A DNA stretch of 55,352 bases from a virus (IMGVR_UViG_3300037467_002425:1-55352), one strand, 5' to 3'; counted from the first letter of the stretch, positions 41,670 to 55,225 are shown. The notes: generated from the letters alone by a model not told the origin. Numbers and translations: made by a program.

Positions 41670-41948
41670 TTAGTTTTTCTTACCATCCTTTTTAGTCTCC
41701 GGACGCGGGGTAAGTATGTAGAAACTTTGCTGGTAAACACTATCCAGTTTATCGCGAAGTATGCCGTCAATATGCAGATTATGTATCTGCTGTTGAATGA
41801 TCAGCATATTTCGCTGCAAAGTTTGAATATCCTTTTTATTAATTGTGGTGTCAGATTTAGTCTGAGCATTTACTCCGATGCTACAAAGGAGTAAAAAGGC
41901 TACCCCGATCAAGGGTAGCCTTATAATTTTACATGATGTCATCATCTT
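41670..41948 (-). CDS. Small exported protein (signal peptide followed by Gln); start uncertain
   Basis: KIIRLPLIGVAFLLLCSIGVNA|QTKSDTT...; helical mature region. Confidence 0.55.
   Translation of the reverse strand, partial: KMMTSCKIIRLPLIGVAFLLLCSIGVNAQTKSDTTINKKDIQTLQRNMLIIQQQIHNLHIDGILRDKLDSVYQQSFYILTPRPETKKDGKKN
41893..41922 (-). terminator. Intrinsic terminator after the SSB gene
   Basis: Minus strand AAGGCTACCC-TTGATCG-GGGTAGCCTTTTT. Confidence 0.65.
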
Positions 41949-42468
41949 CAAATTCAATTTCATCAAACTCATCGGCAGCATTGGTTACTGAGCCAAGCGG
42001 TTCGCCGTCTTTTACCTTTTGGACGTGATTTAAGCCCACAGCAACGCCGCTGTTGCCGTTTACGTTGAACGGATAGAAATTCAGGCTTACATTGCCCCAA
42101 TCGCCCGATTTGATCTCAGACGGATCAAGGATCGGTTGCACCTTGCGGTCCACAAGACCGGGACGATTTTTCGCATTAGCGTTAAGGAAGAAAGAATCCG
42201 CGTAAGCAGCATCTTCGCGTTCCTCATCACCATCACGAAGCGGCAATTTTTTTGCTTTGAAGCTTTTGCCGAACTTTTCTTTACCGAGTTCAGCGGCGGC
42301 TTCAATTGCTGCATTAATCAATTTCAAAGTCTTTTTATTGGACTTCGGAATGATCAAAGAAAGACCGTACTTAGGTTCTGTAGCACCTGGTGCTAACTTA
42401 GGTTCGGTCAAATTTACATAGGAAAACCTACATAACTCAGGGGTTGACACTTTTGTCTCTGTGTTCAT
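41929..42468 (-). CDS. ssb: Single-stranded DNA-binding protein (DUF2815/T7 gp2.5-like)
   Basis: RFSYVNL.EP, KY..SLIIPK, LPLRDGD, FYPFNVNGN.GVA.GLN.VQK..DGEPLG, acidic tail DDDIM. ATG start at 42468. Confidence 0.9.
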   Translation of the reverse strand: MNTETKVSTPELCRFSYVNLTEPKLAPGATEPKYGLSLIIPKSNKKTLKLINAAIEAAAELGKEKFGKSFKAKKLPLRDGDEEREDAAYADSFFLNANAKNRPGLVDRKVQPILDPSEIKSGDWGNVSLNFYPFNVNGNSGVAVGLNHVQKVKDGEPLGSVTNAADEFDEIEFEDDDIM

Positions 42469-42486
42469 TTTACTCAATTTAATTGT

Positions 42487-43131
42487 TTACAATATATCAC
42501 TTAAAGATTTTATCCAAAGATAGAGTTTTTTAGTTGCCTCAACGTCTGTTGAAGCATGATGAGCGCCGGACATTTTCTCTCCGAAAGCATACTCATAAGC
42601 CACTTCCAGTTTCGGCCAGCTGTATTCACCTTTAAAGCCTGGTAATTTTAATATCGGAGTACCCAGTAACTTTGTACATTCCTTTTGTAAAGGAACTCCC
42701 TCAGGCCGTAATCCGTGTTTTATCTGAACGTTGTTTAACACTAATTGTCTGCGAACTGCTTTCGGGTATATTTTGTACCGGAAAAGTTCGCATTCGATGA
42801 TCGGTTTATCGTAGCTGAGGTTGTGGCAAACCATTACATCAGCACAGTTCATAGCGATTGCCAATTGTGTAAAAGCTATGATCGGATCCACGCCATTCAA
42901 CAAACTTTCATCCTCACTAAATCCGTTTTCTTTCCAGAAATCCCCGGCAGGAAAACGCCAGCCATCCGGATATATCAGATCACAAGCTTTCTCAATAGTT
43001 TCTCCGTTCTCCCAACATAATTCCCAGGCCAATTCTATGATATGTGGCCAGTTATCCACATCCTGAAATGAAGCGGTATATGTAACCGGCAAACCTGTAG
43101 TTTCGGTATCAACTATGAGATATTTCTGCAT
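42487..43131 (-). CDS. DEDDh 3'-5' exonuclease (DnaQ-like)
   Basis: VDTETTG, CHNLSYD, AHHASTDV. Confidence 0.9.
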   Translation of the reverse strand: MQKYLIVDTETTGLPVTYTASFQDVDNWPHIIELAWELCWENGETIEKACDLIYPDGWRFPAGDFWKENGFSEDESLLNGVDPIIAFTQLAIAMNCADVMVCHNLSYDKPIIECELFRYKIYPKAVRRQLVLNNVQIKHGLRPEGVPLQKECTKLLGTPILKLPGFKGEYSWPKLEVAYEYAFGEKMSGAHHASTDVEATKKLYLWIKSLSDIL

Positions 43132-43370
43132 ATAAATTTTTTATGACATCTACATTTTACTAATAGTGAGCCTCTTAACAAAAGTTGATCATAATTCATT
43201 TTTGAAATTTTAGTTTCTAACTTACAATTAGGACATCTATATTTGAAACATCTTAAAATATTGGTTCTATTGAGAAAAGTAGATTCAAATAAAACTACTT
43301 CCTCATGAACAAATGAACTATTATTTGATTTAATTTTTCCAAGTAAAAGACGTTTCTTTTTGTTAATCAT
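43113..43370 (-). CDS. Hypothetical Cys-containing protein
   Basis: 85 aa, CPNC and CRC, AT-rich. Confidence 0.5.
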   Translation of the reverse strand: MINKKKRLLLGKIKSNNSSFVHEEVVLFESTFLNRTNILRCFKYRCPNCKLETKISKMNYDQLLLRGSLLVKCRCHKKFICRNIS

Positions 43371-43657
43371 TTCACGATTACCTCAACATTTTCAACCCTG
43401 TGATTACTCTGTTCGTTATTAACACCTGCGTAGTAAAGTTTCTTTTCATCAATTCTGCTTACTACATGCCAGTCATTCTCATCTGAGCCTTTATATCTGA
43501 AGGTATCATGCGGCTGCAGGTCTGCTAAAGTTTTAAAACTTTTTGGACCGAACTGCCTGATATCTTTCTCGGCTTGCTTATTGAAAAGCAGGCAATAACC
43601 GTTCTTATGCTGATCACAAGTGGTTGGGTTTTCTTTGTTGCAAAGTTCGCAAATCAT
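43367..43657 (-). CDS. Hypothetical protein
   Basis: 96 aa ORF, coupled; N-terminal Cys cluster. Confidence 0.65.
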   Translation of the reverse strand: MICELCNKENPTTCDQHKNGYCLLFNKQAEKDIRQFGPKSFKTLADLQPHDTFRYKGSDENDWHVVSRIDEKKLYYAGVNNEQSNHRVENVEVIVK

Positions 43658-44019
43658 AACTCAAATTCAGTTTGTTGAGAACTTAACTCATTGCGCTTCT
43701 CAATTGCCATTTTTAATAGGGTGAAAAGCTTATCCCATATCTCACGGTAAATTTTCTTTTGTTCTTCATCTGCGCAATAACTTTTCAGCATTTCAATAGA
43801 TTTTAGAATAACCGTGTCGAGTTGCCGGGTAGTACATGAAAGAAAACAATCATAAGGAGCATCTGAATAATTAAACATATTCATGTTACCGTACCAGAAA
43901 TGGCCTATTGTAGCTTCATGGCTTTTCTCACCGTTTTTAATAGCCTCAGTTAAAAGATCAAATTGAATTTTGTTTAAAGTAAACTCTACGTATACTTCAA
44001 CGACAAGTTGCGCTCTCAT
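43654..44019 (-). CDS. Hypothetical protein
   Basis: 121 aa ORF, ATGA-coupled. Confidence 0.65.
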   Translation of the reverse strand: MRAQLVVEVYVEFTLNKIQFDLLTEAIKNGEKSHEATIGHFWYGNMNMFNYSDAPYDCFLSCTTRQLDTVILKSIEMLKSYCADEEQKKIYREIWDKLFTLLKMAIEKRNELSSQQTEFEL

Positions 44020-45167
44020 ATATCTTCGTCTGCAATTACTTTAAACTCTCCGGCAGCAACACTATAAGGCTGACGTTTATCACTCTCTTTGACTAATGTT
44101 GGTGCGCCTGGTGGCTTGATCAGAAGTGGTTCAACAATTTCAGCGAATACAGGCTTTGTAAGCTTCTTCTCCATCTCCCCCAGTGGCAATAACGCCTTCG
44201 GCTTATAAATGTCAACATAGCCCGCCATTTCAAGCTTTGTGGCAACAATAATCTCACTATTGTACTTGCGATTTGATCTCCCTTCAACCACTTTCATACC
44301 TGGCCATTGTTTCTCACCGGAGACGGCGGTTGCCAAAGCATAATTTTCAACTGAAGCAATCCATTTAGTAAACATATCTGAACGATCAATAACCTCTAGC
44401 ACTTCCTCATCTGTGAGTAAATCCGGGTTTTTAAAATCCAACGCTGCCAACTCCATATTATAATCATGCAGAGCTCTGCAGGTTGCCTTTGCCCTACAGA
44501 ATGTACAGGCTTTTCCCGGTGCAAATTCACCTTCGCCCGCATAAGCCAATGCTGCTTTCGGCTTCAGGTCTTTCTTGGCCCACTCCAAAAGCTCAGCGAC
44601 GCTGATCTCCCATGACGAGATATTATCGATACGCGGTTGGTAGATATTCATCTGGATGCGGTCGATCTCATATATCTCTTTGAACATCTCATAAGCGCCC
44701 AAGGCATAGATCATGAGCTGAGCATTATTGGGGGCATAGACAGGAACACCCTTGCCGTGTTTGTAATCATCAAAGATCAGAACCTTCTCACCGATGATAA
44801 GTGCATCGGCCGTACCGAACCCATCCTCGATCCACTCGGTCATATCCAAACGGGTCTCAATGAACAGGTGCGTTTTGCCTGGCTTGCATTGGTTCCACAC
44901 GAAATACGCATAACCCTCAGCATAATCGTGCAGTTCTTTGCTATAATACTGGTTGTTTATGTGAACGGCCATGATCATTTCTGCCTCGGCTGAAGTGATC
45001 ATTCCGGAAAGCTGGCGCAGGATGCATTCGCCCACGGCGTGCGCTAGCGTGCCCTCGTCAGCATAAGAGGAAGAAGTATTTGGAAATTCCTGTTCTAGTC
45101 TGGCAGACGGTGTACAGGTCAGCCACCGACTCGCTGCCGATGGGGATAAGATTGCGTGTTTTGACAT
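44016..45167 (-). CDS. Cas4-like PD-(D/E)XK exonuclease (DUF2800)
   Basis: HAILSPSAASRWLTC, EGT.AH, GFGTAD, DYKHGKG, QLMIYALG, IYQPR, CTFC.A...C. Confidence 0.92.
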   Translation of the reverse strand: MSKHAILSPSAASRWLTCTPSARLEQEFPNTSSSYADEGTLAHAVGECILRQLSGMITSAEAEMIMAVHINNQYYSKELHDYAEGYAYFVWNQCKPGKTHLFIETRLDMTEWIEDGFGTADALIIGEKVLIFDDYKHGKGVPVYAPNNAQLMIYALGAYEMFKEIYEIDRIQMNIYQPRIDNISSWEISVAELLEWAKKDLKPKAALAYAGEGEFAPGKACTFCRAKATCRALHDYNMELAALDFKNPDLLTDEEVLEVIDRSDMFTKWIASVENYALATAVSGEKQWPGMKVVEGRSNRKYNSEIIVATKLEMAGYVDIYKPKALLPLGEMEKKLTKPVFAEIVEPLLIKPPGAPTLVKESDKRQPYSVAAGEFKVIADEDI

Positions 45168-45168
45168 T

Positions 45169-45384
45169 TCAATATTCTATTTGAAATTGTAATTTGCGAA
45201 CGAACTCTCTAAATAGATTTTCTTGCTTTTCAGCTTCTGTTGCTTCCAAAGGACAAATGTCGCTTTGCGACTGCCAAAAATCGGTAAGAAGATTTTCTAA
45301 AGGGCGGTCAGTAGCCCAAAGACCACAGGTGCAATCTTTGTGATGAATTAATTTTTTAATTTCTTCGGTTGATAAATTTTCCAT
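45169..45384 (-). CDS. Hypothetical protein
   Basis: ORF sharing its start context with ssb; ATG at 45384. Confidence 0.6.
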   Translation of the reverse strand: MENLSTEEIKKLIHHKDCTCGLWATDRPLENLLTDFWQSQSDICPLEATEAEKQENLFREFVRKLQFQIEY

Positions 45385-45414
45385 TTTACTCAATTTAAAC
45401 AGTTTAACAATTTT

Positions 45415-45515
45415 TATATTCCGGGAGTACCTTTGCAGCCTTCACTGCCCTCGCAAGCTCGTTCGGTTTTATAACGTTATTATTACCCGTCTGTAGGCTT
45501 TACTCCCGGAATATA
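45415..45515 (-). ncRNA. Candidate structured RNA element C
   Basis: Perfect 15-bp closing stem TATATTCCGGGAGTA/TACTCCCGGAATATA around small inner hairpins; intergenic. Confidence 0.5.
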
Positions 45516-45517
45516 TT

Positions 45518-46006
45518 TTATCCGATCGCGTTGAACGCGTCCATCAATGCTGCGTAATCCTCTGGTTTTACCGGGTTCTTATCAGCTTGTGAGATAGAGT
45601 CAGCGCCAAACTTTTTAATGGTTTCCGTCACCTCGGCTTTTTTACCGTTACGTATCAGGTTGACTGCTTTTTCCTGCAGCATTTCTTTGGTGATCGCAGA
45701 AACAGGCTGTTTAGTTTCCGACTCTTCTTCATTAGCTTGTTCAATGGTTGGACCATCTTGAATATTAGTAGTACCTAATTGTTCCTCAATGGCAGGTTTA
45801 GCCGCTGCTAAAGTTTTCTCGGCTTTGGTCTGACGTTTTCTTGGCTGTCCTTCTTCCGTTTTTAGGGCATCAAAATTTTCGGTAATTTTTTCGTCCTTTA
45901 TGGAAATTTCCGGTTTACTTTCAATCTGAATAGTACCACCTAATAATTCCATTAACGCCTGACGGGCTTCTGCGCCGGTAGGAAATTCAAGTTCAATTTT
46001 AATCAT
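45518..46006 (-). CDS. Phage protein typically found upstream of DUF2800/SSB
   Basis: Low-complexity middle and C-terminal IT.E.L......GKK..V...I.KFGA..IS......EDY..LM domain. Confidence 0.7.
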   Translation of the reverse strand: MIKIELEFPTGAEARQALMELLGGTIQIESKPEISIKDEKITENFDALKTEEGQPRKRQTKAEKTLAAAKPAIEEQLGTTNIQDGPTIEQANEEESETKQPVSAITKEMLQEKAVNLIRNGKKAEVTETIKKFGADSISQADKNPVKPEDYAALMDAFNAIG

Positions 46007-46038
46007 TATATTGTCTTTTTAAGTTTCTTAATTTCAAA

Positions 46039-46307: not shown

Positions 46308-46505
46308 TTATAGTATATCTCCTGCCAAACTCGCCTGGTAATCTTCCCAGTAGCCGTTTTGCTTTAACCAGTCTTGCATAGCAAGTTCGGTTAATTGAGA
46401 AATTTTAATCTTCCTGTCATCATACACCTTACCCTGTACAAATTGTATCATTGGCAGCGGCCAGGTTACCGTGACGGAAAATCGTGATTTTTGTTTTTGT
46501 GCCAT
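46308..46505 (-). CDS. Ribbon-helix-helix-like regulator
   Basis: FSVTVTW alternating beta strand, helix, KISQLTELAMQDWL; first gene after the promoter. Confidence 0.6.
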   Translation of the reverse strand: MAQKQKSRFSVTVTWPLPMIQFVQGKVYDDRKIKISQLTELAMQDWLKQNGYWEDYQASLAGDIL

Positions 46506-46590: not shown

Positions 46591-46827
46591 ATGAAAGCAT
46601 TTGATTGGCTTTGGTTCCGTTTTTACGATATACTGTTTTATCTTGACAGCGAAGAACCTCCTATTGTTCAATGGCTTGTTGATGATTTTAAAAAAGAATG
46701 TTATTTCAATAATATCTATACAGACGATGAAATTTGGTTTATAATCTTACGTAAATTCGATAAATGGTTTGATGAATTTATGTGGTTAGAGCAACTGGAA
46801 ATTAATAAAAGAAATGGAAAAACTTGA
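46591..46827 (+). CDS. Hypothetical aromatic-rich protein
   Basis: 78 aa ORF from ATG 46591. Confidence 0.55.
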   Translation: MKAFDWLWFRFYDILFYLDSEEPPIVQWLVDDFKKECYFNNIYTDDEIWFIILRKFDKWFDEFMWLEQLEINKRNGKT

Positions 46828-46984
46828 ATACTTACAATCGCAAAAACTGATCTACGAAGCGCAGATCAAAGCCCTGGACAAAATGCGGGTAGCCTCTGCC
46901 TTTGAGTGGATGATCGCTTTAAAAGCGGGCCTCGCTGAGATCGAACGGCAAATTGATGAACTTGAAAATTCCGATATATTATGA
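46814..46984 (+). CDS. Small helical protein (56 aa) ending in DIL
   Basis: Manual ORF MEKLEYLQSQKLIYEAQIKALDKMRVASAFEWMIALKAGLAEIERQIDELENSDIL; ATGA-coupled to the HNH gene. Confidence 0.7.
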   Translation: MEKLEYLQSQKLIYEAQIKALDKMRVASAFEWMIALKAGLAEIERQIDELENSDIL

Positions 46985-47421
46985 GTATGATAAGACTTCT
47001 TAAAGGTATCAAAGTTAATTTTGAAACAGAATGTTGGGAATGGCAGGGTGCAATTCGGTCTAAAAATTCTGGGTATGGTTGCATTGATATAGGGGGTAAA
47101 GTAAATGGTATTTTATGGAATGTTCATAGATATTCTTATACCATTTTTAAAGGTGAAATACCTAAAGGCCTTTTAGTGCTTCATAAATGTGATAATAAAA
47201 TTTGCTGTAACCCAAATCATTTATTCTTAGGTACTCAAAAAGATAATATTCGTGATATGGATAATAAAAAACGTAGAGGAAGGTATGCGGAGCATGGTAA
47301 ATCTTTTTCTATGTATAATAAAAATAAATGTCGTTGTGAATTGTGCAAAAGTTTTATGAAATCTTATTGGTTAAAAAGATCAATAATTTTGAAGCAAAGA
47401 AAGGCTGAAAATGCTTCATAG
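46981..47421 (+). CDS. HNH endonuclease (paralog of 38666..39151)
   Basis: CWEWQG, VHRYSY, LHKCDNKICCNPNHLFLGT, HG..SMY...CRC.LC. Confidence 0.9.
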   Translation: MSMIRLLKGIKVNFETECWEWQGAIRSKNSGYGCIDIGGKVNGILWNVHRYSYTIFKGEIPKGLLVLHKCDNKICCNPNHLFLGTQKDNIRDMDNKKRRGRYAEHGKSFSMYNKNKCRCELCKSFMKSYWLKRSIILKQRKAENAS

Positions 47422-49579
47422 TTTATCATTGGATTTAGAAGATTTCAGCCCGGTTGATATTAAGTACGGCGTACATAAACGCGCTGAGTCCGGTGAGATT
47501 ATTTTGCTGGCTTATTCTCTTGATTACTCGCCTGTTGAAGTTATCGATCTTACTAGTGAAGAAATGCCCGAATGGTTATTTTATGCACTTACTGATCCGG
47601 AATATATTAAAAAAGCGTTCAATGCCCCGTATGAACGGAATTACCTGAACATTACTCTCGGTATTTACTCACCTCCTGAACAGTGGGAATGTACCCAGGC
47701 CCGTGCAGCCATGTGCGGCTTACCTTTAAGCCTGGATGACGCCAGTAAAGCATTAGGATTGATCGAAAAGAAAGACCCGATAGGTAAATCGCTTATCCGT
47801 TATTTCTGTATGCCTTGTAAACCTACAGCGGCTAATGGATATCGTACCCGGAATTTACCTGAACATGACCCGGAGAAATGGGAACAATTCATTGAATATA
47901 ACCGTCAGGATGTTGTGGTCGAACAGAATGTTGATAAAGCCTGCCAGTGGTATAAAATACCTGCGGTAGAACATCATATCTGGTGTCTGAACGAACGGAA
48001 GAACGAACGCGGGGTAATGGTAGATATGCAGCTCATTGATTCCGCGATCATTATTAATAAAGAGTTCCGGGAAGAACTGATCGAGGAAGCTACTGAGCTC
48101 TCCGGGCTATCAAACGTCAACTCCCCCAAACAGCTGAAAGAATGGCTATCAGCTGAAATGGAGGAAGAAGTCACTACATTAAATAAACTTGCTGTACGGC
48201 AAATGCTGATCAATGAAGAAGATCCTGCGGTACGACGTATCCTTCAGATCAGGCAGCTAATGTCCAAATCCAGTATTACTAAATACCTGGCGCTAAAATA
48301 CGGCGCGTGTGAGGATTTACGTGTCCGGGGTATGATACAATACTACGGTGCAAACAGAACAGGCAGAGAAGCCGGCAGAGGCCCGCAGCCCCAAAATTTC
48401 CCGCGTATCGATGAGGACTTTGCAAAACTTCTGGACGATACTCGCGAACTGGTGCGCGAACGGGATACGGAAAGCCTGCACATGGTCTTTCCGAACTTGT
48501 CAAATATACTATCACAATTGTTACGGCCAACATTTGTCGCTGCACCTGGTAAAGAGTTTATTGTGCTTGACTTCTCATCGATTGAGTCACTTGCAAGTGC
48601 TTGTTTAGCCGGGGAGCAGTGGCGTATTGACTTTTTTAAAGAAGGCGGTGATATTTATAAAGCCTCAGGTTCGATGATGTTCCATAAGCCGATCGAGCAG
48701 ATCACTAAAGATGATCGGCAAAAATCGAAGGTGTCGGAGCTACTTTTCCAGTATGGCGGCGGTGAAAAAGCCATGGAACGAAACAACGATACAATTGAGG
48801 ATCCGAAAAAGCGTATTCCCATAGCGGAGATTCCAGGACTTGTCAAGACTTGGCGAAAAGCAAACCCCGCGATTGTACAAATGTGGTGGGATATGGACGC
48901 GGCCGCGAAATTGGCAATCAATACAGGACAATTGGTACCCGTTAAAAACGGTGTGGCTTTTGGTATGAAGAACGGCAATTTATTAATGAAACTACCATCC
49001 AGCAGATGCCTGGTTTACCAGAAAGCATTCCTGCAGAAATTTTATATCGCCAAAGTGCCTGTTGTTGATGATAAACTCATGCCGAAAATTCACTTTGACG
49101 AAGAAAACAACCCATACGTAAAATTCCTGTCAGTAAAGATCGGCAAGGTTCAGAAAGACACGCCTGAAGAATATCAGTATTTACTCAAAAGAGCCGGACT
49201 TGCTTATGATACCAGTAGGTTTAATGAATACCTGCGAGAGTTCGGACTTACTTATGAAAAGCCGAAACCCGGTAAACGCGAGACAGTATGTTTCTGGGGA
49301 ATGGATGGTATCTGGAAAGTCATTGAGACATATGGGCCGAAAACTTTTGAGAATTTAGTTCAGGCAGCGTGTAGGGATTTATTAATGAACTCTATTATAA
49401 ATATTGAAAAAGCCGGATATCCGATTGTTTTATCGGTTCATGATGAGGTAGTAATCGAAATTCCTAAAGATAGTGTTTCTTTTGATAAAGTAAAGGAAAT
49501 CATGTTACAACTACCGGACTGGGCTTCCTGGTGGCCGGTTCGGGCAGATGGGTTTATCGGTGATTATTATATGAAATAG
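47411..49579 (+). CDS. polA: Family A DNA polymerase (SPO2-like) with 3'-5' exonuclease
   Basis: LDLE and AFNA.YER exonuclease motifs; YYGANRTGR; motif A DFSSIE; motif B RQKSKVSELLFQYG; motif C VHDE. Confidence 0.93.
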   Translation: MLHSLSLDLEDFSPVDIKYGVHKRAESGEIILLAYSLDYSPVEVIDLTSEEMPEWLFYALTDPEYIKKAFNAPYERNYLNITLGIYSPPEQWECTQARAAMCGLPLSLDDASKALGLIEKKDPIGKSLIRYFCMPCKPTAANGYRTRNLPEHDPEKWEQFIEYNRQDVVVEQNVDKACQWYKIPAVEHHIWCLNERKNERGVMVDMQLIDSAIIINKEFREELIEEATELSGLSNVNSPKQLKEWLSAEMEEEVTTLNKLAVRQMLINEEDPAVRRILQIRQLMSKSSITKYLALKYGACEDLRVRGMIQYYGANRTGREAGRGPQPQNFPRIDEDFAKLLDDTRELVRERDTESLHMVFPNLSNILSQLLRPTFVAAPGKEFIVLDFSSIESLASACLAGEQWRIDFFKEGGDIYKASGSMMFHKPIEQITKDDRQKSKVSELLFQYGGGEKAMERNNDTIEDPKKRIPIAEIPGLVKTWRKANPAIVQMWWDMDAAAKLAINTGQLVPVKNGVAFGMKNGNLLMKLPSSRCLVYQKAFLQKFYIAKVPVVDDKLMPKIHFDEENNPYVKFLSVKIGKVQKDTPEEYQYLLKRAGLAYDTSRFNEYLREFGLTYEKPKPGKRETVCFWGMDGIWKVIETYGPKTFENLVQAACRDLLMNSIINIEKAGYPIVLSVHDEVVIEIPKDSVSFDKVKEIMLQLPDWASWWPVRADGFIGDYYMK

Positions 49580-50003
49580 AATTATCAAAAATTACTATCA
49601 TCGAAGGGAATGGTGCCGGTTGTTTACTACTGCCAAATTTTAATCGCCCTTTAATAAACCGGATTTCGTATTTTTTATAACAATACTGATGAAACCAAGG
49701 CGTATCTGTTCTTGAAGGTACCAGCATTACCACTATAGTATTTGGTTTTAAAGCTTCTTCATAACATTTTTTAACCCAAATTTTAGTAGTATTTTTACCG
49801 TAAGGTGGGTTACAAAAAACCGTTTCACCAGACCAGTCTTGTTTTAATCCATCATCTTCAGGTGTAAAATAATTAAAGCATTTTGTAGAACTAACAAGAC
49901 AGCAGGGATCAAGTGTAAAATTAAATTCTTTATTTAACTCATCAAATAACCAATCCGGCGTTTCCCAGGTATCTATTTCAGTACTATAAACCTTACCATT
50001 CAT
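49554..50003 (-). CDS. Phage N6-adenine DNA methyltransferase (Dam-like)
   Basis: WETP, FTLDPC, DGLKQDW, FCNPPY, LVPSRTDT.WF, GRLKF, APFPS. Confidence 0.92.
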   Translation of the reverse strand: MNGKVYSTEIDTWETPDWLFDELNKEFNFTLDPCCLVSSTKCFNYFTPEDDGLKQDWSGETVFCNPPYGKNTTKIWVKKCYEEALKPNTIVVMLVPSRTDTPWFHQYCYKKYEIRFIKGRLKFGSSKQPAPFPSMIVIFDNSISYNNHR

Positions 50004-51361
50004 AAATATCGTTTTAAAGCGTTCATAAGCTTCTCTTGTGTCTCATGTTTCCCCGCCAATCTCTCAATTACCAACTGCTCTATACTATCTTTTACAACAA
50101 AATATTTCACGATAGTTGGTTTAGTTTTACCTTGACGGTCAATCCTGCCTAACATTTGGGTCATTACCTCTAAATCCCAATTTAACCCATAAAAGTATAA
50201 ATGATTTCCTCCTTGTTGTAAATTAATGCCATAAGCCAGAGATTGTATCTGCGCGCAGGCTACCGGTATCTTGCCAGCGTTCCAGTCATCAATATCCTGG
50301 TCGGTTGATACTTTTTTGACGCCTGGGATGGCTTTGAGCATGCGCTCATAATCCGAAGTGAACTGATAAGCAATAAATACCGGATCTCCGTCCAGTGCTT
50401 CTACATCTTCCGCCAATGCTTCCAATTTGGAGTTGTCCACAACTTCATACGATCCATCGCCGCGATACACAGCACCATTGCAGTACTGCAGCAGTTTGGA
50501 GTACATGGATGCCGCATTAACTGGCGTAAGATTGAAGTCATTGCTGAGCTGTAGTACTTCGGTTTCTTTGAACTCTTTGTACCGCTCATAGCTTTGTAGT
50601 TCAACTTCCTCGTAAATATCAATCCGTGGCGGAAGGTCCAGATAATCGGCTGTTTTCATACTCAGGCAAATGTCCGAGATTTTAGCAAACATCTTTTCCT
50701 CAGCATCTTTACGTGGTATCCAGTTAAATATGATATGCCCCTGTCTTGCGCCAGGAAGAAAGTATTCATCTTTAAACCCTCCGAATGTCGGCCCGAGGCG
50801 TTGGCCTTTATCCAAAAGATAGACCTGCGCCCAAAGTCCTAAAAGCTGGTTGGGTGCCGGTGTGCCGGTTAGCCCGATTACCCTGCGGCAATACGGTAAT
50901 ATTCTTTTGATCGCTTTGAAACGTTGTGCTGATGGATTTTTAAAATTGCTGAGCTCATCTAGGATGATTGCATCAAACGGCCATTTGCCTTTGTTCTTAC
51001 CAATATAAAAAACTAACCAGGCGATCATATCCCGCGAGACAGCATAAATATCAGCTTTAGTGTAAAGTGCTTGTATGCGCTGCTTTTCGGTACCGTTGAT
51101 CACGGATATTTTCAAATGCCGGGTGTGGTCCCATTTTTTGATCTCTGAAGGCCAAGTGTGTGATATTACCCGTTTTGGCCCTATGATCAATGGCTTATCA
51201 ACACCTAATGTACCAAGTAGCCATTCAATAGCAGTTAACGTCATAATACTTTTCCCGAGACCTACCTGGGCAAAGAGAGCTGCGTAAGGATTATCTAATA
51301 AGTGTTGTGTACCTTTTTCCTGGTACAAGTGAGGCTTGTAGATCAAAGAATATCCTCCCAC
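50000..51361 (-). CDS. SNF2-like SF2 helicase
   Basis: GLGKS, IILDELS, GLTGTP, GINLQ.GG, Q..GRIDRQG. Confidence 0.92.
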   Translation of the reverse strand: MGGYSLIYKPHLYQEKGTQHLLDNPYAALFAQVGLGKSIMTLTAIEWLLGTLGVDKPLIIGPKRVISHTWPSEIKKWDHTRHLKISVINGTEKQRIQALYTKADIYAVSRDMIAWLVFYIGKNKGKWPFDAIILDELSNFKNPSAQRFKAIKRILPYCRRVIGLTGTPAPNQLLGLWAQVYLLDKGQRLGPTFGGFKDEYFLPGARQGHIIFNWIPRKDAEEKMFAKISDICLSMKTADYLDLPPRIDIYEEVELQSYERYKEFKETEVLQLSNDFNLTPVNAASMYSKLLQYCNGAVYRGDGSYEVVDNSKLEALAEDVEALDGDPVFIAYQFTSDYERMLKAIPGVKKVSTDQDIDDWNAGKIPVACAQIQSLAYGINLQQGGNHLYFYGLNWDLEVMTQMLGRIDRQGKTKPTIVKYFVVKDSIEQLVIERLAGKHETQEKLMNALKRYL

Positions 51362-52365
51362 AATAAAGGTTCAAATAAATGAACGATGGTGTCTACGTTC
51401 CAGCCATTGCCGAGCATTTTATAAGCCTGTGTATCATTAACTGAGGACGTATAACCTTCGCAAACGCCTTGTAATTTTTCTGCTTCAACAGTATAAAGCA
51501 TTCTGATAGAATCACCATCCTGGATATGAATTGTTTCTCTCGCGCCCTTAATTACAGTTGAACATAAAGATTTTGCTTTTTTATTTATGGCATCTGGGAA
51601 CTTCATTATACCCATTCTATTACCAGATTTCCAAACTTTGCCGGCGTATTTAATTTTAGCTCTTTCTACTTCAGCCGCAGTTAAAAATACCATCGTTCTT
51701 TGACCATGATTATCAACACCCTTATAATAATTGGCGTCTAAACACATTGCTTTTTCAGAACGCTCAAAATATTCTTCACGATTTTTTATAATACCAATTC
51801 CTTCAGTTATTAAAATATCCTTTAATAACAATCCTTTATCATTTGGCAAATCAGCCAAAGCAATGTTTGTCCAATATAACCTTTTTCTGGTTTGTGCACT
51901 TAGAATAGCGCTATTTATAAAAATCGGCTCAATACCTAAAGCTTTGCTGATCACTGCCTGGTATTCCTTCTTCATCACCACGTTTTCTAGGAACACTTTT
52001 ACGTCCGGATGTTCGACTTTTATTTCTTCATAGATGCGGACGAACTCAAAGAACAGCTTGCTGCGCGGATCCTCAAAGTTCAATTGTTTGCCTGCAAATG
52101 AAAAACCCTGGCACGGACTGCCTCCGCAGATCAAACCTTTAGCAAAACTGACCTCATACTGCCCGAACTCCGTGTACAGAACACCTTCAAAGTAATGTAC
52201 TTTGGTAACATCGCCGATATGAATAATATTGGGCCAATTCGCCTTACTTACCTGTATAGCATATTTATCGATCTCGCTGGCAAAGTATCTCTCAACAGGT
52301 ATTCCTACGCGTTTTAGCGCGATCATTGCACAACTACATCCGTCAAAGAGACTTAATACATTCAT
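51343..52365 (-). CDS. C5-cytosine DNA methyltransferase
   Basis: LSLFDG, SEID, GGSPCQGFS, LENV, Q.RKRLYW, LGNGW. Confidence 0.93.
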   Translation of the reverse strand: MNVLSLFDGCSCAMIALKRVGIPVERYFASEIDKYAIQVSKANWPNIIHIGDVTKVHYFEGVLYTEFGQYEVSFAKGLICGGSPCQGFSFAGKQLNFEDPRSKLFFEFVRIYEEIKVEHPDVKVFLENVVMKKEYQAVISKALGIEPIFINSAILSAQTRKRLYWTNIALADLPNDKGLLLKDILITEGIGIIKNREEYFERSEKAMCLDANYYKGVDNHGQRTMVFLTAAEVERAKIKYAGKVWKSGNRMGIMKFPDAINKKAKSLCSTVIKGARETIHIQDGDSIRMLYTVEAEKLQGVCEGYTSSVNDTQAYKMLGNGWNVDTIVHLFEPLLWEDIL

Positions 52366-52612
52366 CTATATTTTCCTGATTAATTACCCAAACCTCAAAT
52401 CCAAGCCCTTTCAGCACACGAATAACAGCTTCCTGCCTCACTGATAGTTTTCCGCGACCGTATTTAAACTCCGCAAAAAATAATCGTCCTCCGGGTAACA
52501 GAATCAGTCTGTCGGGCAAACCAGTGAACGAGACCGCGACCAGCTTGATCGCTAAACCGCCGCGAGACTTGACCGCCAGCCGAAACCGTTGCTCAGTTTG
52601 TTTCTCCGGCAT
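52343..52612 (-). CDS. VRR-NUC nuclease
   Basis: E...E, GLPDR, FAEFK...GKLS..Q. Confidence 0.9.
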   Translation of the reverse strand: MPEKQTEQRFRLAVKSRGGLAIKLVAVSFTGLPDRLILLPGGRLFFAEFKYGRGKLSVRQEAVIRVLKGLGFEVWVINQENIDECIKSL

Positions 52613-52822
52613 CTACAAATTAATTACTGTTACCAAATCGTCGCATTTTTCATATGGGGCGTTTTTAGGCAACGGATAAGTATTTGTACCCGGTAGTGGT
52701 AAATACCAAAAATTATTATGTAGTGAAACAAACAAATAACTGTTTTTATTTTCACCCGCATATAAACCGCTCACGTCTTTTTGACCGTCCAAAAAATAAC
52801 GTTTTCCTATTTTTAATTTCAT
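52613..52822 (-). CDS. Hypothetical protein
   Basis: 69 aa coupled ORF. Confidence 0.6.
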   Translation of the reverse strand: MKLKIGKRYFLDGQKDVSGLYAGENKNSYLFVSLHNNFWYLPLPGTNTYPLPKNAPYEKCDDLVTVINL

Positions 52823-53373
52823 AATATATCGGTTACATCATATTTATCTCCAAAACGTTTCAGGAACAAGGCCTGGTTGCAGATATCCTGTCCTTGCTCA
52901 TTTCTGAACATCCAGTTCTTCGGCGCCAGGCAAGTCGTTTCAAGTCCCAGGCGATCACCCGCCACACAACAAGCCTCATCTAAACCTGTCTGGCCCCCAT
53001 TTCTTAATTCAATTTCTTCCCCATACATTTCAAAAATAACTACCCGTAAAAAATCGGTCATATAATCATTGATCTGATCCTGAGTGATACCAAACTTCTT
53101 TAAAGTGTATATACCGTTACCTGCGATATTTAAAGTTTTTACCTTTTGTTTATATAGAAGCTCGGCCACACCTTGTTTCATTATTGACGGTGCTTTAGGT
53201 GTAAAAAATTGTAAAGACATTCCGTGATATTTCCCGTATGCCGCTTTCCTGGTCAATACTTCTCCCGGTGTAGTGAAGTCAACGGAAAAAGCAATTGTGA
53301 GGTCACTGAGCCGGGCGTTATCCCAGGTACGCATGGCATAACCTGTTTGCTCATGTTCGATAAACTTTATCAT
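52819..53373 (-). CDS. SLOG superfamily protein (YpsA/cpYpsA-like, permuted)
   Basis: Y..RT..N...SD.TIAF, PGE.LT, LNIAGN, GGQTGLDEA. Confidence 0.75.
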   Translation of the reverse strand: MIKFIEHEQTGYAMRTWDNARLSDLTIAFSVDFTTPGEVLTRKAAYGKYHGMSLQFFTPKAPSIMKQGVAELLYKQKVKTLNIAGNGIYTLKKFGITQDQINDYMTDFLRVVIFEMYGEEIELRNGGQTGLDEACCVAGDRLGLETTCLAPKNWMFRNEQGQDICNQALFLKRFGDKYDVTDIL

Positions 53374-53720
53374 ATAAAAAGCTTATTTTTAAAACTAAAG
53401 CCTTTAAAATGTTCATATGACAAAAGTGCTGGTTCAAGCCATCCTACATCTACTGTCAATCCAGTAGGCGAAAATTTAATAATCGGAAGCTTATCATTAT
53501 GTACAAAATTTTTCCTGTATTCTTCATAATCAAAACCTAAGGCTTCTGTGCTATTGGTTATACCTGCAGGGTTCATACGTTTAGCAGGTAAATTAATGCA
53601 AACTGTTAAACCAAACTGACCAACTATCGCTTCAGCGTCACCCAATATTAATCCTAGTTCCACTACATTAGGATAGTGCTCAACTAATACTTTATAACCT
53701 TCTTCTGATTTCATAACCAA
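53370..53720 (-). CDS. Hypothetical protein
   Basis: 116 aa coupled ORF. Confidence 0.6.
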   Translation of the reverse strand: MVMKSEEGYKVLVEHYPNVVELGLILGDAEAIVGQFGLTVCINLPAKRMNPAGITNSTEALGFDYEEYRKNFVHNDKLPIIKFSPTGLTVDVGWLEPALLSYEHFKGFSFKNKLFI

Positions 53721-53811
53721 TATGCTTTACTTATACTACTTTCTTTACAAATCGAACAGGTGCAACTCTCCATACAGATCGGGTCGTCGATGCTTTCGTA
53801 ATACGCATAGA

Positions 53812-54054
53812 TCAATTCCCCCTGCGCGCCTGAGTGGTCAAATGCGCCCACTGGCGATATGTATTCCATTGGATGATCTTATCACTCGCTGTTCCATAAA
53901 TAACGTCACCACGATTTCCTCCTTTAACCTCGTACGTTTCGCCTCGAACAGTAAAAGAACAGATTACACTATCTCCAATTTTAAACTCATCAGGAAATAT
54001 AATCCTTCCTTCACACTCAAAACTTTCACCGTCTATTGTTACAATATATTTCAT
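53812..54054 (-). CDS. Hypothetical protein
   Basis: 80 aa ORF in the operon. Confidence 0.55.
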   Translation of the reverse strand: MKYIVTIDGESFECEGRIIFPDEFKIGDSVICSFTVRGETYEVKGGNRGDVIYGTASDKIIQWNTYRQWAHLTTQARRGN

Positions 54055-54055
54055 A

Positions 54056-54271
54056 TCAATTAAGTATTATCATTGCGTGACACTTCGGATTGTACAATGT
54101 TTCAGAGGCGGTACAATAAACCGGTGAAAGAGTAAACCAGAAAATAGCAGTAGTTTTCAAATTTGCTTTGCGAAAGTTTATCCACTCCCGAGATGTTCCA
54201 AACTGCTGATCAAACCGTAGGTTATGACAGAAAACACTACCTACAATCGGTTCTTCAATTACTAACTTCAT
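54056..54271 (-). CDS. Hypothetical protein
   Basis: 71 aa ORF in the operon. Confidence 0.5.
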   Translation of the reverse strand: MKLVIEEPIVGSVFCHNLRFDQQFGTSREWINFRKANLKTTAIFWFTLSPVYCTASETLYNPKCHAMIILN

Positions 54272-54509
54272 AAAAATCGTCCTCTTGAATTACCCAATAA
54301 CTTTCTTCATTCACGACAAAAGCGGTTTGATGATATAAATCTTCCAGCACAAAATAATGTGTTCCAACAAATACAATTTTACCGGGACTTCCGATATTTT
54401 CTAAAGTACCGGCACCGTGTAGATATGCATCTGCGGTTACTAAACCGACTTTTGGTATAAAATTAATCATTGATATATTTCTCCGTAAATAATGAAGTTT
54501 GAAGATCAA
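54255..54509 (-). CDS. Hypothetical protein (start probably further downstream)
   Basis: ORF in the operon; an internal ATG near 54470 is more plausible. Confidence 0.5.
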   Translation of the reverse strand: MIFKLHYLRRNISMINFIPKVGLVTADAYLHGAGTLENIGSPGKIVFVGTHYFVLEDLYHQTAFVVNEESYWVIQEDDFYEVSN

Positions 54510-54792
54510 TTATACTGAGCGTGAAAAACCGGCTATAATCCTGTTGGATTAATTCTTCGATCTTTCGTTCGAAAAAATGAAGTGCTTCATTTTTATCATT
54601 GAATAAAGCTATTCTTTCAGCCAAAGTAATTTTATCCGATTTGTCCTTGTTCAATAGTACTAAATATCTGAACGAGTACTCGATACTTTTATAGAGATCA
54701 GAACTTTCGTTGTAAGTCTCTACAGCGTTTAAAATATGTTCATCGCATGAAGCACATTTTATACTTGCTAATAATTGTTCTTCTTTTGTCAT
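54463..54792 (-). CDS. Hypothetical protein
   Basis: 109 aa ORF, ATGA-coupled. Confidence 0.6.
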   Translation of the reverse strand: MTKEEQLLASIKCASCDEHILNAVETYNESSDLYKSIEYSFRYLVLLNKDKSDKITLAERIALFNDKNEALHFFERKIEELIQQDYSRFFTLSIIDLQTSLFTEKYIND

Positions 54793-54926
54793 CGCGTTAA
54801 CCTTTCCATCGGCTTAGTGCCGGTTAATTTATTGACCTGCTGGTTGACATAAGCCATCCATTTATTGTAATCCCTGCCTGTATAGCCTTTCGGGGTAACT
54901 GGCTGCTGTGTAAATGTCCGTTTCAT
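54789..54926 (-). CDS. Hypothetical protein (45 aa)
   Basis: Manual ORF MKRTFTQQPVTPKGYTGRDYNKWMAYVNQQV...; coupled on both sides. Confidence 0.55.
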   Translation of the reverse strand: MKRTFTQQPVTPKGYTGRDYNKWMAYVNQQVNKLTGTKPMERLTR

Positions 54927-55189
54927 GGTTTGCCTCCTAACTGAAATCTTCTAACATTAAAATAGTTAAATGAATCACAATATAATTGGGCTATGTTGCT
55001 ATATTTATCAGCAATATTATCAAATGAATCGGCTTTTAAACCATCGGTGTGAATGTACTTCATTGAAAAATTACGGGCTATAGATGCTTTATCAAAATAT
55101 AGCATTGCACTGTCGTGCATCCTACTTGCATGACGAAGATTCCCGGTGCATGAAGTTAATGTTATCACGTAAATTAAGATCCGTTTCAT
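54923..55189 (-). CDS. Putative lipoprotein
   Basis: MKRILIYVITLTS|C lipobox-like signal. Confidence 0.6.
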   Translation of the reverse strand: MKRILIYVITLTSCTGNLRHASRMHDSAMLYFDKASIARNFSMKYIHTDGLKADSFDNIADKYSNIAQLYCDSFNYFNVRRFQLGGKP

Positions 55190-55225
55190 AATATATCCTT
55201 TGCTTCAAATAAAGGCCAAATTTGT
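55186..55225 (-). CDS. 3' end of the junction-spanning HNH endonuclease
   Basis: Encodes ...EQIWPLFEAKDIL*, in frame with 1-299 after circularisation. Confidence 0.85.

What the first reader, a model, noticed from the sequence alone, without database searches (positions are those of the whole stretch)
41929..55225. Six unrelated early proteins end in the same tripeptide DIL, resembling the SSB tail
Seen C-termini: DEDDh exonuclease SDIL, RHH-like 46308..46505 GDIL, 46814..46984 SDIL, C5 methyltransferase EDIL, SLOG TDIL and junction HNH KDIL. SSB ends DDDIM and the Cas4-like nuclease ends DEDI. No structural gene ends this way. The codons differ (Leu TTG, CTA, CTT, TTA; Ile ATA, ATT) and three cases lack an ATGA overlap, which points to protein-level selection. 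Known: acidic-hydrophobic SSB C-termini are docking peptides for replication partners. Inference: a phage-wide C-terminal tag that recruits diverse enzymes to one hub (for example PolA or the primase-helicase) or acts as a shared degron.
Basis: partly seen in the sequence, partly recalled or inferred. Interest (0 to 1): 0.8.

Follow-up and report, generated by a model that had tools for sequence, protein, structure and literature searches.

The report
Shared Asp-Ile-Leu tail on phage DNA enzymes
In this uncultured soil phage and its relatives, many unrelated DNA-handling enzymes, including nearly every DNA methyltransferase, end in the same three residues as the tip of the phage's own DNA-coating protein, which most likely tethers them all to one still unidentified partner.

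Summary
Six proteins of the replication/early arm end in D-I-L (0 of 10,000 permutations reach 5; 6 of 36 early versus 0 of 57 other genes).

Selection is mainly at the protein level:
- Two complete relatives and a 3.7-kb fragment keep the tail. They also carry it on non-orthologous enzymes: other DNA methyltransferase families and a prim-pol.
- In the SLOG family the tail is a clade-specific appendix of about 9 residues. 44 of 44 clade members end [DE]-[ILM]-L, against 0 of 69 distant members.
- 43 of 45 clade exonucleases end polar-[ILVM]-[LMI], against 1 of 48 distant ones.
- The gp2.5/Enc34-type SSB of the clade ends D-I-[M/L/I] in 28 of 41, and exactly DDIL in one relative.

The string GATATATTATGA is a secondary layer. 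It is fixed only where the next gene starts in an ATGA overlap (11 of 11). 79 of 90 ATGA junctions lack it.

Best reading (about 0.55): a lineage-specific C-terminal docking tag copied from the SSB tail tip. It works like the shared tails of T4 gp43/gp55/gp33 or T7 gp2.5/gp4. The partner is unknown.

This scan's unchecked notes describe analogous shared tails in other, unrelated phages. I rate it a new variant of a known kind.

The parts
42487..43131 (-). Epsilon-like DEDDh 3'-5' exonuclease, 214 aa, ends SDIL (DIL codons 42490-42498, GATATATTG, then TAA). No ATGA overlap.
   Evidence: phrog_192; clade homologs; distant homologs carry PF00929; AF2 pLDDT 94.4; the last helix 193-213 runs to the C-terminus.
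46308..46505 (-). 65-aa protein of no known family, ends GDIL (codons 46311-46319, GATATACTA, then TAA). No gene start lies downstream.
   Evidence: orthologs in G001 and G002 end GDIL; 7 of 11 aligned family members end DIL.
46814..46984 (+). 56-aa protein, probably all-helical by eye (not modelled), ends SDIL (codons 46973-46981). Its stop overlaps the start of an HNH_3 gene in ATGA.
   Evidence: (G001 ortholog GDIL; G002 ortholog EDIL encoded GATATCCTG).
51343..52365 (-). C5 cytosine DNA methyltransferase, 340 aa, ends EDIL (codons 51346-51354, GATATTCTT, then TGA). The stop overlaps a probable TTG start of SNF2.
   Evidence: (PF00145; the domain ends at residue 333 of 340).
52819..53373 (-). 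cpYpsA-type SLOG protein, 184 aa, ends TDIL (codons 52822-52830), with an ATGA overlap.
   Evidence: the tail is a clade-specific appendix; AF2 pLDDT 94.5; the last 4 residues 68.
55186..55352 (-). 3' part of the HNH endonuclease gene, ends KDIL (codons 55189-55197), with an ATGA overlap. Positions 55226-55352 are the second copy of the 127-nt terminal repeat.
1..299 (-). 5' part of the same HNH gene (112 aa once the record is circularised).
   Evidence: PF14279/PF01844.
41929..42468 (-). gp2.5/Enc34-type SSB (DUF2815), 179 aa from the ATG, acidic tail ...EFDEIEFEDDDIM. It is followed by a hairpin plus a T-run.
44016..45167 (-). DUF2800 / PD-(D/E)XK (Cas4-like) nuclease, ends DEDI in all three genomes. 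This is a related but shorter tip.
47411..49579 (+). Family A DNA polymerase, 722 aa, without the tail. A candidate partner, by inference only.
859..2997 (-). VapE/PriCT-type primase-helicase with a BT4734-like N-terminal domain. It ends EGLI here. The G002 ortholog ends NDLV, and the unrelated prim-pol of G001 ends LDIL.
50000..51361 (-). SNF2-type helicase without the tail. A conserved candidate partner, by inference only.

Best explanation
The terminal [D/N/E]-[I/L]-[L/M]-COOH is a short linear docking peptide. It is selected at the protein level, is the same as the tip of this phage lineage's own gp2.5/Enc34-type SSB tail, and has been appended to many unrelated DNA-transaction enzymes. 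These are DNA methyltransferases of at least six types, an epsilon-like exonuclease, an HNH nuclease, a SLOG protein, primases and two small proteins.

The likely function (inferred, not shown) is to tether these enzymes to one common partner at replicating phage DNA. DNA modification, processing and priming would then be coupled to synthesis, as a tool-belt without a phage clamp.

The partner is not identified. My candidates and guessed odds are:
- the family A polymerase, by analogy with T7, about 0.25;
- the tail-accepting beta-sheet groove of the SSB itself, about 0.15-0.2;
- a host factor such as the beta clamp, about 0.15.

Where the next gene starts in an ATGA overlap, the same nine bases also form part of an A/T-rich, Shine-Dalgarno-less start context. 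That fixes the codon choice (GATATATTATGA) without creating the peptide.
For: (1) Enrichment far beyond chance, confined to the replication/early arm.

(2) Retention in relatives. The two complete relatives (DUF2800 nuclease 89% and 82% identical) have 6 and 7 DIL ends. L062, a 3.7-kb fragment of a fourth phage, has 2 DIL ends and 1 NIL end among 9 ORFs.

(3) The tail sits on non-orthologous proteins. 10 of the 11 DNA methyltransferases seen in the four phages end polar-[IV]-[LI]:
- C5 methyltransferases only 33% identical to each other (EDIL, LDIL);
- N6_N4 methyltransferases (YDIL, YDVI);
- phrog_757 methyltransferases (NDIL, ENIL);
- MT-A70 (LDIL);
- D12-class (KSIL, NTIL);
- Dam-type (NNIL in G001).
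The exception is the window's Dam-type protein. The G001 prim-pol ends LDIL and the G002 primase-helicase ends NDLV.

(4) The tail is an appendix. The SLOG family core ends ...LFKxRF plus 0-4 residues in 69 distant members, 0 of which have the motif. 44 of 44 clade members carry about 9 extra residues ending [DE]-[ILM]-L: DIL 35, DLL 7, EML 2.

(5) Substitutions are conservative for the peptide but destroy the DNA string. Clade exonucleases end DIL, NIL, EIL, ELL, DLM, EII, DIM and so on (43 of 45), against 1 of 48 distant ones.

(6) Synonymous change between orthologs: the 56-aa protein uses GATATATTA, GATATATTA, GATATCCTG; the 65-aa protein uses ...CTA or ...TTA. The 7 ends without an ATGA overlap use ATA, ATT, ATC and TTG, CTA, CTT, TTA, CTG.

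(7) The SSB of the clade ends D-I-[M/L/I] in 28 of 41, and DDIL in G002. More distant SSBs of the family end DDDFLS and the like.

(8) Translational coupling does not need the motif: 79 of 90 ATGA junctions pooled over the three genomes lack it.

(9) Tail-less controls. The HNH_3-type homing-endonuclease-like genes, the glycosyltransferases and all structural genes lack it. In 39 loci of more distant DUF2800-SSB phages only 8 of 874 ORFs end [DEN][ILVMF][LMIF], several of them SSBs.

(10) The last four residues of the SLOG model are its least confident part (pLDDT 68 against 95 before them).

(11) Established precedent, from passages I read:
- T4 gp43, gp55 and gp33 share interchangeable hydrophobic-acidic C-termini that bind the clamp gp45 (PMC2988020).
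- The T7 gp2.5 tail anchors on the polymerase front basic patch, and a gp4-tail peptide is seen on gp5 (PMC12339929).
- T7-type and DUF2815 SSBs have acidic tails implicated in polymerase and primase-helicase contacts (PMC5686142).
Against: - No binding was shown and the partner is unknown.
- There is a nucleotide-level signal. 15 of the 18 non-SSB DIL ends use the Ile codon ATA (background 0.32-0.35; 6 of 22 internal DIL), and all 11 ATGA-coupled ends are GA[TC]ATATTATGA. The three SLOG orthologs (57-59% identical as proteins) have identical tail codons.
- Apart from the D at -3, the non-SSB tails are not acidic runs like SSB tails.
- In the exonuclease the tail is the end of a confidently modelled helix (pLDDT 80), not a free tail.
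- Pairing proteins to genomes by equal contig length (a heuristic), position -2 agrees between SLOG and exonuclease in 6 of 6 pairs but between SLOG and SSB in only 2 of 6. There is thus no clear co-variation with the SSB tip.
- The window's own primase-helicase (EGLI) and Dam-type methyltransferase (NNHR) lack the D/polar-I-L form.
- Only three complete genomes and one fragment gave DNA.
Confidence: 0.55

Rival explanations
1. The primary selected object is the RNA/DNA string GAUAUAUUAUGA. It would be a termination-reinitiation or regulator-binding signal for the downstream gene (for example a RegA-like translational repressor site), and the peptide would be a by-product.
For: - All 3 copies of GATATATTATGA in the window, and all 4 in each of the two relatives, lie at such gene ends. 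One of the G001 copies is the relic of the HNH gene end.
- All 11 ATGA-coupled DIL ends use the same codons.
- A is favoured at -3 of starts (0.48-0.57), and the genome has no Shine-Dalgarno signal.
- ATA is over-used at terminal DIL compared with internal DIL.
Against: - 7 of 18 DIL ends have no ATGA overlap and use other codons.
- The 65-aa gene has no downstream start.
- The SSB tail (GACATCATG or GACATTCTT) is followed by a terminator-like hairpin.
- Family-wide variants (DLL, EML, NIL, ELL, DLM) keep the peptide class and break the string.
- 79 of 90 ATGA junctions do without it.
- No Rfam family matches the window.
Confidence: 0.08
2. The tail is a shared C-terminal degron. It would be read by a host or phage protease or adaptor and would time the removal of early enzymes.
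For: - The tail has two terminal aliphatic residues with a free carboxylate.
- It is restricted to early genes.
- That non-polar C-termini can target proteins to bacterial proteases is general knowledge, recalled and not checked here.
Against: - SSB, which is needed stoichiometrically throughout replication, carries the same tip in 28 of 41 clade members.
- The tail sits on primases and on nearly all DNA methyltransferases, which should act as long as DNA is being made. This is inference.
- The conserved Asp at -3 is not typical of known non-polar degrons (recalled).
Confidence: 0.12
3. The tail mimics a host motif to plug phage enzymes into, or to block, a host hub. The hub could be the beta sliding clamp or a protein that reads the host SSB tip, rather than a phage protein.
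For: - No phage clamp was found with PF00712 or PF02916.
- The D-I-L tip resembles the last three residues of the clamp-binding pentapeptide and the D-D-D-I part of bacterial SSB tips (both recalled, not tested).
- The phage exonuclease's nearest cellular homologs are the exonuclease domains fused to Pol III alpha in Flavobacterium and Pedobacter.
- In T4, clamp clients share such C-termini (PMC2988020).
Against: - Most tails lack the Gln that begins clamp-binding motifs.
- The tail is specific to one phage lineage, whereas a host hub should be usable by unrelated phages of the same hosts. That was not testable here.
- The host is unknown.
Confidence: 0.15
4. The shared ends are cassette boundaries. 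Short conserved junction sequences would mediate or survive gene swapping, so new genes inherit the last codons of the slot.
For: - G001 keeps relics of replaced genes at such junctions: the last 15 codons of the HNH gene, ending in the same AKDIL tip, and the W-type methyltransferase 3' end upstream of SNF2.
- Contigs of relatives show indels at gene boundaries.
- Different methyltransferases occupy the same slot before SNF2.
Against: - Similarity among the ends within one genome stops exactly at the three codons.
- The incoming G001 methyltransferase brought its own differently coded tail beside the relic.
- Nine bases are too short for homologous exchange (inference).
- Protein-class conservation across about 45 diverged SLOG and exonuclease clusters needs selection on the peptide.
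Confidence: 0.05

Closest known systems
T4 sliding-clamp clients: the shared hydrophobic-acidic C-termini of gp43, gp55 and gp33 that bind gp45 (PMC2988020, passages read)
   Same: Unrelated phage proteins carry near-identical short hydrophobic and acidic peptides at the extreme C-terminus. In T4 these peptides are interchangeable and dock on one hub.
   Different: No clamp gene was found in this phage. The motif is different, at three residues. There are many more clients of other kinds: methyltransferases, nucleases, a SLOG protein and primases. The SSB itself carries the tip.
T7 replisome tails: the acidic C-terminal tails of gp2.5 (SSB) and gp4 (helicase-primase) that dock on gp5 polymerase (PMC12339929; PMC5686142)
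   Same: The SSB is of the same structural type (gp2.5/Enc34, PF10991). In two relatives a primase carries the same tip as the SSB.
   Different: The terminal residues are aliphatic (I-L or I-M), not aromatic. The non-SSB tails lack the long acidic run. The tip has spread to enzymes outside the core replisome. The polymerase aligns with solved family A polymerases over only about 90 residues, so the basic patch cannot be compared.
Bacterial SSB C-terminal tip (SSB-Ct) interaction hub (general knowledge; the motif is recalled)
   Same: An acidic-then-hydrophobic tip with a free carboxylate serves as a docking peptide. The phage SSB tail ...F-E-D-D-D-I-M resembles it.
   Different: The topology is reversed. 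In bacteria one SSB tip is read by many partners. Here many proteins carry the tip and presumably one reader exists.
Earlier notes of this scan on other phages (e1-3483587, e1-3634780, e1-5962270, e1-5999391, e1-5842337, e1-3444957; unchecked AI notes)
   Same: Lineage-specific C-terminal peptides shared by unrelated early proteins. One case includes both DNA methyltransferases and another the primase-helicase.
   Different: The genomes and motifs are different. No sequence relation to this window was found. None names a demonstrated partner.

Membership tests
T7/SSB-type acidic C-terminal docking tails | Motif at the extreme C-terminus with a free carboxylate | tested here: met
   All cases end at the stop codon.
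T7/SSB-type acidic C-terminal docking tails | A run of acidic residues before the hydrophobic tip | tested here: not met
   Met for the SSB, where positions -3 to -6 are mostly D/E. Not met for the clients: in SLOG positions -4 and -5 are T and I/V; in the exonuclease -4 is E/N and -5 is L/M. Only position -3 is acidic or polar.
T7/SSB-type acidic C-terminal docking tails | A flexible, unstructured tail | tested here: inconclusive
   The last 4 residues of SLOG have pLDDT 68 against about 95 before them. The exonuclease tail is the end of a helix with pLDDT 80.
T7/SSB-type acidic C-terminal docking tails | Binds the polymerase and/or the helicase-primase | not testable with these tools
   Needs binding assays. 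The sequence data are silent on this.
T4-type shared clamp-binding C-termini | The same hydrophobic-acidic C-terminal epitope on unrelated proteins of one phage | tested here: met
T4-type shared clamp-binding C-termini | A phage-encoded sliding clamp as reader | tested here: not met
   There is no match to PF00712 (beta clamp) or PF02916 (T4-type clamp) in the complete genome at E <= 1. Only these two families were searched.
Bacterial beta-clamp-binding motif (QL[SD]LF / QLxLxL; consensus recalled) | A conserved Gln at the first motif position and hydrophobic residues at positions 4 and 5 | tested here: not met
   The hydrophobic pair is present. Gln is absent from the SLOG, methyltransferase, HNH and small-protein tails, and occurs at about -7 in only some exonucleases.
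Translation-coupling / start-context nucleotide motif | Always precedes an overlapping start, and is general to coupled junctions | tested here: not met
   11 of 18 DIL ends have an ATGA overlap and 7 do not. 79 of 90 ATGA junctions lack the motif.
gp2.5/Enc34-type SSB (PF10991, DUF2815), for the SSB itself | A full-length match to the family profile, plus an acidic C-terminal tail | tested here: met
   PF10991 E 1e-58 over residues 8-181; phrog_112. The tail is ...EFDEIEFEDDDIM.

The most novel reading that the evidence does not exclude
A clamp-less 'tool-belt'. This phage lineage would have copied the last three residues of its SSB tail onto almost every DNA methyltransferase it acquires, and onto nucleases, a SLOG enzyme and primases. 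All of them would then ride on one reader at the fork, either the family A polymerase or the tail-accepting groove of SSB molecules coating ssDNA. The result would be replication-coupled DNA modification as an anti-restriction strategy. Acquiring the tag would be the entry ticket for newly captured genes. Together with the analogous tails noted by this scan in unrelated phages, this would make lineage-specific C-terminal address tags a general, undescribed organising principle of phage early proteomes.
Probability: 0.3. Interest if true: 0.85.

Novelty: new variant of a known kind. Interest (0 to 1): 0.66.

Why it matters
If the tail is a docking tag, it gives a three-residue handle for finding the organising hub of a widespread but uncultured group of soil phages. 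It would also explain how horizontally acquired methyltransferases are plugged into replication so that nascent DNA is protected from restriction. It further suggests a simple sequence signature, recurrent C-terminal peptides matching the SSB tip, for predicting replisome-associated proteins among phage genes of unknown function.

The principle is known from T4 and T7 for two or three proteins. What is not described in the literature I could search is the breadth here: six to eight clients per genome, at least six methyltransferase types, and a family-level demonstration that the tail is an appendix.

Tried and rejected
- Complex prediction of the polymerase (alignment A3) with the last 40 residues of the SSB (alignment A5): verdict 'no answer', score 0.00, controls not run. 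This counts neither for nor against binding.
- Close DNA relatives among deposited phages: none by megablast. By tblastn the SSB is below 60% and the polymerase about 42% identical to any deposited phage, so no cultured relative or host could be named.
- The metagenome scan with the polymerase alignment gave only distant relatives (37-45%). The viral scan with the SLOG alignment gave the same two relatives again. The genome scan gave one 3.7-kb clade fragment.
- Looking for the same trick in distant DUF2800-SSB phages: no recurrent tripeptide in 39 loci, nor in the distant metagenome loci.
- Candidate adaptor proteins conserved in all three genomes (162 aa at 45518-46006; 96 aa at 43367-43657): no Pfam family, only PHROGs of unknown function, and no usable Atlas lead.
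- Comparison of a T7-like basic patch: not possible. T7 gp5 is not among the PDB sequence matches, and only about 90 residues align to solved family A polymerases.
- Consensus promoter and terminator scan: promoter-like sites 49 versus 39 +/- 6 in shuffles, uninformative. No Rfam family. No tRNA.
- Laying contigs of four public runs: relatives at 80-95% identity exist in three runs recorded as soil or rhizosphere metagenomes. Most differences were not listed (385 not shown), so no codon statistics were taken from it. The small-share runs are not used as habitat evidence beyond this remark.
- Two papers could not be opened. Supplementary files were not consulted. Supplementary Fig. S1 of PMC5686142, on tail-mediated crystal contacts, may bear on the SSB-groove idea.

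Full report
WHAT THE WINDOW IS. The 55,352-nt window is a complete uncultured-virus record with a 127-nt direct terminal repeat (unique length 55,225). Its gene map is as follows.
- Terminase, portal and a long + strand structural block, about 18.2-41.0 kb.
- A - strand cluster of glycosyltransferase-like genes interspersed with HNH_3-type homing-endonuclease-like genes, 10.0-17.7 kb.
- A replication/early arm, 41.1-55.2 kb, continuing across the record ends to 3.3 kb.

The replication arm holds these genes:
- a gp2.5/Enc34-type SSB (PF10991);
- an epsilon-like DEDDh exonuclease;
- a DUF2800/PD-(D/E)XK nuclease;
- a family A polymerase;
- a Dam-type methyltransferase;
- an SNF2 helicase;
- a C5 methyltransferase;
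- a VRR-NUC-like protein;
- a cpYpsA SLOG protein;
- an HNH nuclease;
- a VapE/PriCT primase-helicase with a BT4734-like N-terminal domain and DUF3874.

Gene starts have an A/T-rich context without a Shine-Dalgarno signal. The exonuclease's nearest cellular homologs are the exonuclease domains fused to Pol III alpha in Flavobacterium and Pedobacter. Together these hint at a Bacteroidota host, but the host is not established. No deposited phage is close.

Among all 341 six-frame ORFs of 35 aa or more, they are the only ones ending in DIL. Internal DIL is no more common than composition predicts (7 of 17,816 tripeptides). About 0.036 C-terminal DIL are therefore expected in 92 genes (Poisson P = 5e-10 for the five in the greedy gene set). 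When one random internal tripeptide is drawn per protein, no tripeptide reached a count of 5 in 10,000 draws in any of three genomes. The observed counts are 6, 6 and 7. The six lie among 36 replication/early genes. None of the 57 other genes ends this way (Fisher P = 0.0026).

RELATIVES KEEP IT, ALSO ON DIFFERENT PROTEINS. Two complete relatives were found and fetched whole. I call them G001 and G002; their DUF2800 nucleases are 89% and 82% identical to the window's.
- G001 has six DIL ends: SLOG, exonuclease, the 65-aa and 54-aa proteins, a 501-aa C5 methyltransferase only 33% identical to the window's, and an 841-aa prim-pol.
- G002 has seven: HNH, SLOG, the 56- and 62-aa proteins, a 215-aa phrog_757 DNA methyltransferase, a 258-aa N6_N4 methyltransferase, and the SSB itself (...EEDDIL).
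- L062, a 3.7-kb fragment of a fourth relative, has SLOG TDIL, an MT-A70 methyltransferase LDIL and a phrog_757 methyltransferase ENIL among 9 ORFs.

Near-variants also occur: the G001 N6_N4 methyltransferase ends YDVI, the D12-class methyltransferases KSIL and NTIL, the G001 Dam-type NNIL, and the G002 primase-helicase NDLV. In all, 10 of the 11 DNA methyltransferases seen in the four phages end polar-[I/V]-[L/I]. The exception is the window's Dam-type protein (NNHR).

PROTEIN LEVEL OR DNA LEVEL. Large protein searches give the clearest answer.
- SLOG family. The conserved core ends ...LFKxRF followed by 0-4 residues in 69 distant members, none of which has the motif. All 44 members of this phage clade carry about nine extra residues ending [DE]-[ILM]-L (DIL 35, DLL 7, EML 2). 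A small sister group of 7 ends N-[DN]-I.
- Exonuclease. 43 of 45 clade members end polar-[ILVM]-[LMI] (DIL, NIL, EIL, ELL, DLM, EII, DIM and so on), against 1 of 48 distant members.
- 65-aa family. 7 of 11 aligned sequences end DIL.

These substitutions conserve the chemistry of the peptide and destroy the nucleotide string.

In the three genomes, orthologs differ synonymously. The 56-aa protein uses GATATATTA, GATATATTA, GATATCCTG; the 65-aa protein uses ...CTA or ...TTA. The seven ends without an ATGA overlap use three Ile and five Leu codons.

There is nevertheless a nucleotide layer. All 11 ends whose stop overlaps the next start as ATGA read GA[TC]ATATTATGA. 15 of the 18 non-SSB DIL ends use ATA, against a background of about 0.33 and 6 of 22 internal DIL. 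This is explained at least partly by the start context. A is favoured at -3 (0.57 in the 79 ATGA junctions without DIL), and -3 is the third base of the Ile codon. The Leu codon must end in A to form ATGA. Coupling itself does not need the motif: 79 of 90 ATGA junctions lack it. I conclude that the peptide is the selected object, and that the DNA string is a secondary optimisation at coupled junctions.

LINK TO THE SSB. The SSB of the window ends ...EFDEIEFEDDDIM. Of the 41 closest SSB clusters (61-96% identical), 28 end D-I-[M/L/I]: DIM 15, DIL 9, DII 4. More distant members of the family mostly end D-D-D-F-L-S. In 39 loci of those more distant phages, no other protein shares the SSB tip. Only 8 of 874 ORFs match a loose acidic-hydrophobic-hydrophobic end, several of them SSBs. 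The spread of the tip to other proteins is therefore specific to this lineage. The DUF2800 nuclease ends DEDI in all three genomes, a related but shorter tip.

STRUCTURE. The AlphaFold2 models of the SLOG protein and the exonuclease are confident (mean pLDDT 94.5 and 94.4). In SLOG the last four residues are the least confident part (68). In the exonuclease the tail continues the final helix, residues 193-213 (80). The tail is thus exposed at a chain end, but it is not uniformly a disordered peptide.

HOW IT MOST LIKELY WORKS. Shown:
- a lineage-specific C-terminal tripeptide class that is conserved at the protein level;
- it is appended to unrelated families;
- it is restricted to proteins that act on DNA;
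- it is identical to the tip of the SSB tail.

Inferred: it is a docking peptide that brings these enzymes to one reader on replicating DNA. Precedents:
- In T7, the gp2.5 tail anchors on the polymerase front basic patch, and a gp4-tail peptide is seen on the polymerase (PMC12339929, passages).
- T7-type SSBs, including DUF2815 proteins, have acidic tails implicated in contacts with polymerase and primase-helicase. In crystals these tails lie in the concave beta-sheet of neighbouring SSB molecules (PMC5686142, passages).

No clamp gene was found. Candidates are the polymerase, the SSB groove or a host factor. The near-universal presence of the tail on methyltransferases suggests replication-coupled DNA modification (inference).

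RIVALS.
- A pure RNA/DNA signal is disfavoured by the uncoupled and recoded cases and by the family-wide variants.
- A degron is not excluded, but it fits poorly with SSB and the primases carrying the tip.
- A cassette-boundary effect exists. G001 retains relics of a replaced HNH 3' end and of the W-type methyltransferase 3' end, and contigs of relatives show indels at gene borders. It cannot, however, explain conservation of the peptide class across about 45 diverged clusters per family.
- A host hub is a variant of the docking idea.

Weak points. No binding data exist. DNA is available from only three genomes and one fragment.

COMPARISON AND NOVELTY. The principle of a shared C-terminal epitope on unrelated phage proteins docking on one hub is known from T4 and T7. 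New here are:
- the motif;
- the absence of a phage clamp;
- the number and kind of clients;
- the family-level evidence that the tail is an add-on;
- the identity with the SSB tip.

My literature searches found no description of this (listings and abstracts only, except for the passages cited above). Unchecked notes of this scan report analogous, differently spelled shared tails in unrelated phages. None of them is related in sequence to this window. I class the finding as a new variant of a known kind, with interest 0.66.

Noticed in passing
L004:302-358 (G001) and L004:3435-3455: G001 keeps relics of replaced genes. One is a 16-codon ORF equal to the last residues of the window's HNH, ending in the same AKDIL tip and stop. 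The other is the 3' end of the window-type C5 methyltransferase (coding EDIL and a stop in another frame) at the start of the SNF2 ORF, beside the incoming 501-aa methyltransferase that has its own tail.
   Followed up: partly
window 51343-51361: The SNF2 ORF as listed starts at a GTG 19 nt inside the methyltransferase gene. The G002 ortholog starts at MIYKPH. In the window that position corresponds to a TTG overlapping the methyltransferase stop (TTGA), so this 'uncoupled' DIL end may be coupled through a TTG start.
   Followed up: partly
window 10038-17693 (-): A cluster of at least six glycosyltransferase-like genes (PHROG matches) and a methyltransferase-like gene. It is interrupted by HNH_3/AP2-type homing-endonuclease-like genes (12855-13583, 17160-17693; 15339-15851 is related by BLAST only). 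A fourth HNH_3 gene sits just before the polymerase (46981-47421). None of these carries the tail.
   Followed up: partly
proteins P0162-P0240; loci L006-L044: More distant DUF2815 SSBs have a strikingly uniform tip, D-D-D-F-L-S. DFLS occurs in 32 of the 70 sequences tallied. This is one residue longer than an acidic-aromatic-Leu end. Its reader is equally unknown.
   Followed up: no
proteins P0041-P0047: A sister group of the SLOG clade carries a different appendix ending Y-[IVT]-N-[DN]-I. It resembles the DEDI tip of the DUF2800 nuclease and may be a second tail class.
   Followed up: no
window 42487-43131; proteins P0293-P0336: The phage exonuclease is closest to the N-terminal exonuclease domain of Pol III alpha-type proteins (PF00929+PF02811) of Flavobacterium and Pedobacter. 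Two distant homologs (P0290, P0292) end ...EMQDLF(G), which looks like a clamp-binding type end (motif recalled).
   Followed up: no
window 52587-53711, 53369-53711, 53754-54789 (table 5): Contigs of relatives in two public runs skip whole small genes at gene borders (the 116-aa ORF; SLOG plus its neighbours; the 53.7-54.8 kb block). This indicates cassette-level mosaicism in the early arm.
   Followed up: no
window 47411-49579: The family A polymerase aligns with solved family A polymerases over only about 90 residues (best E 6e-10). It has an N-terminal DxE-type exonuclease motif by eye, so it is a very divergent PolA.
   Followed up: no
window 41896-41922: A G+C-rich hairpin followed by a T-run on the - strand lies directly after the SSB stop. 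It is the likely end of the - strand replication operon.
   Followed up: no
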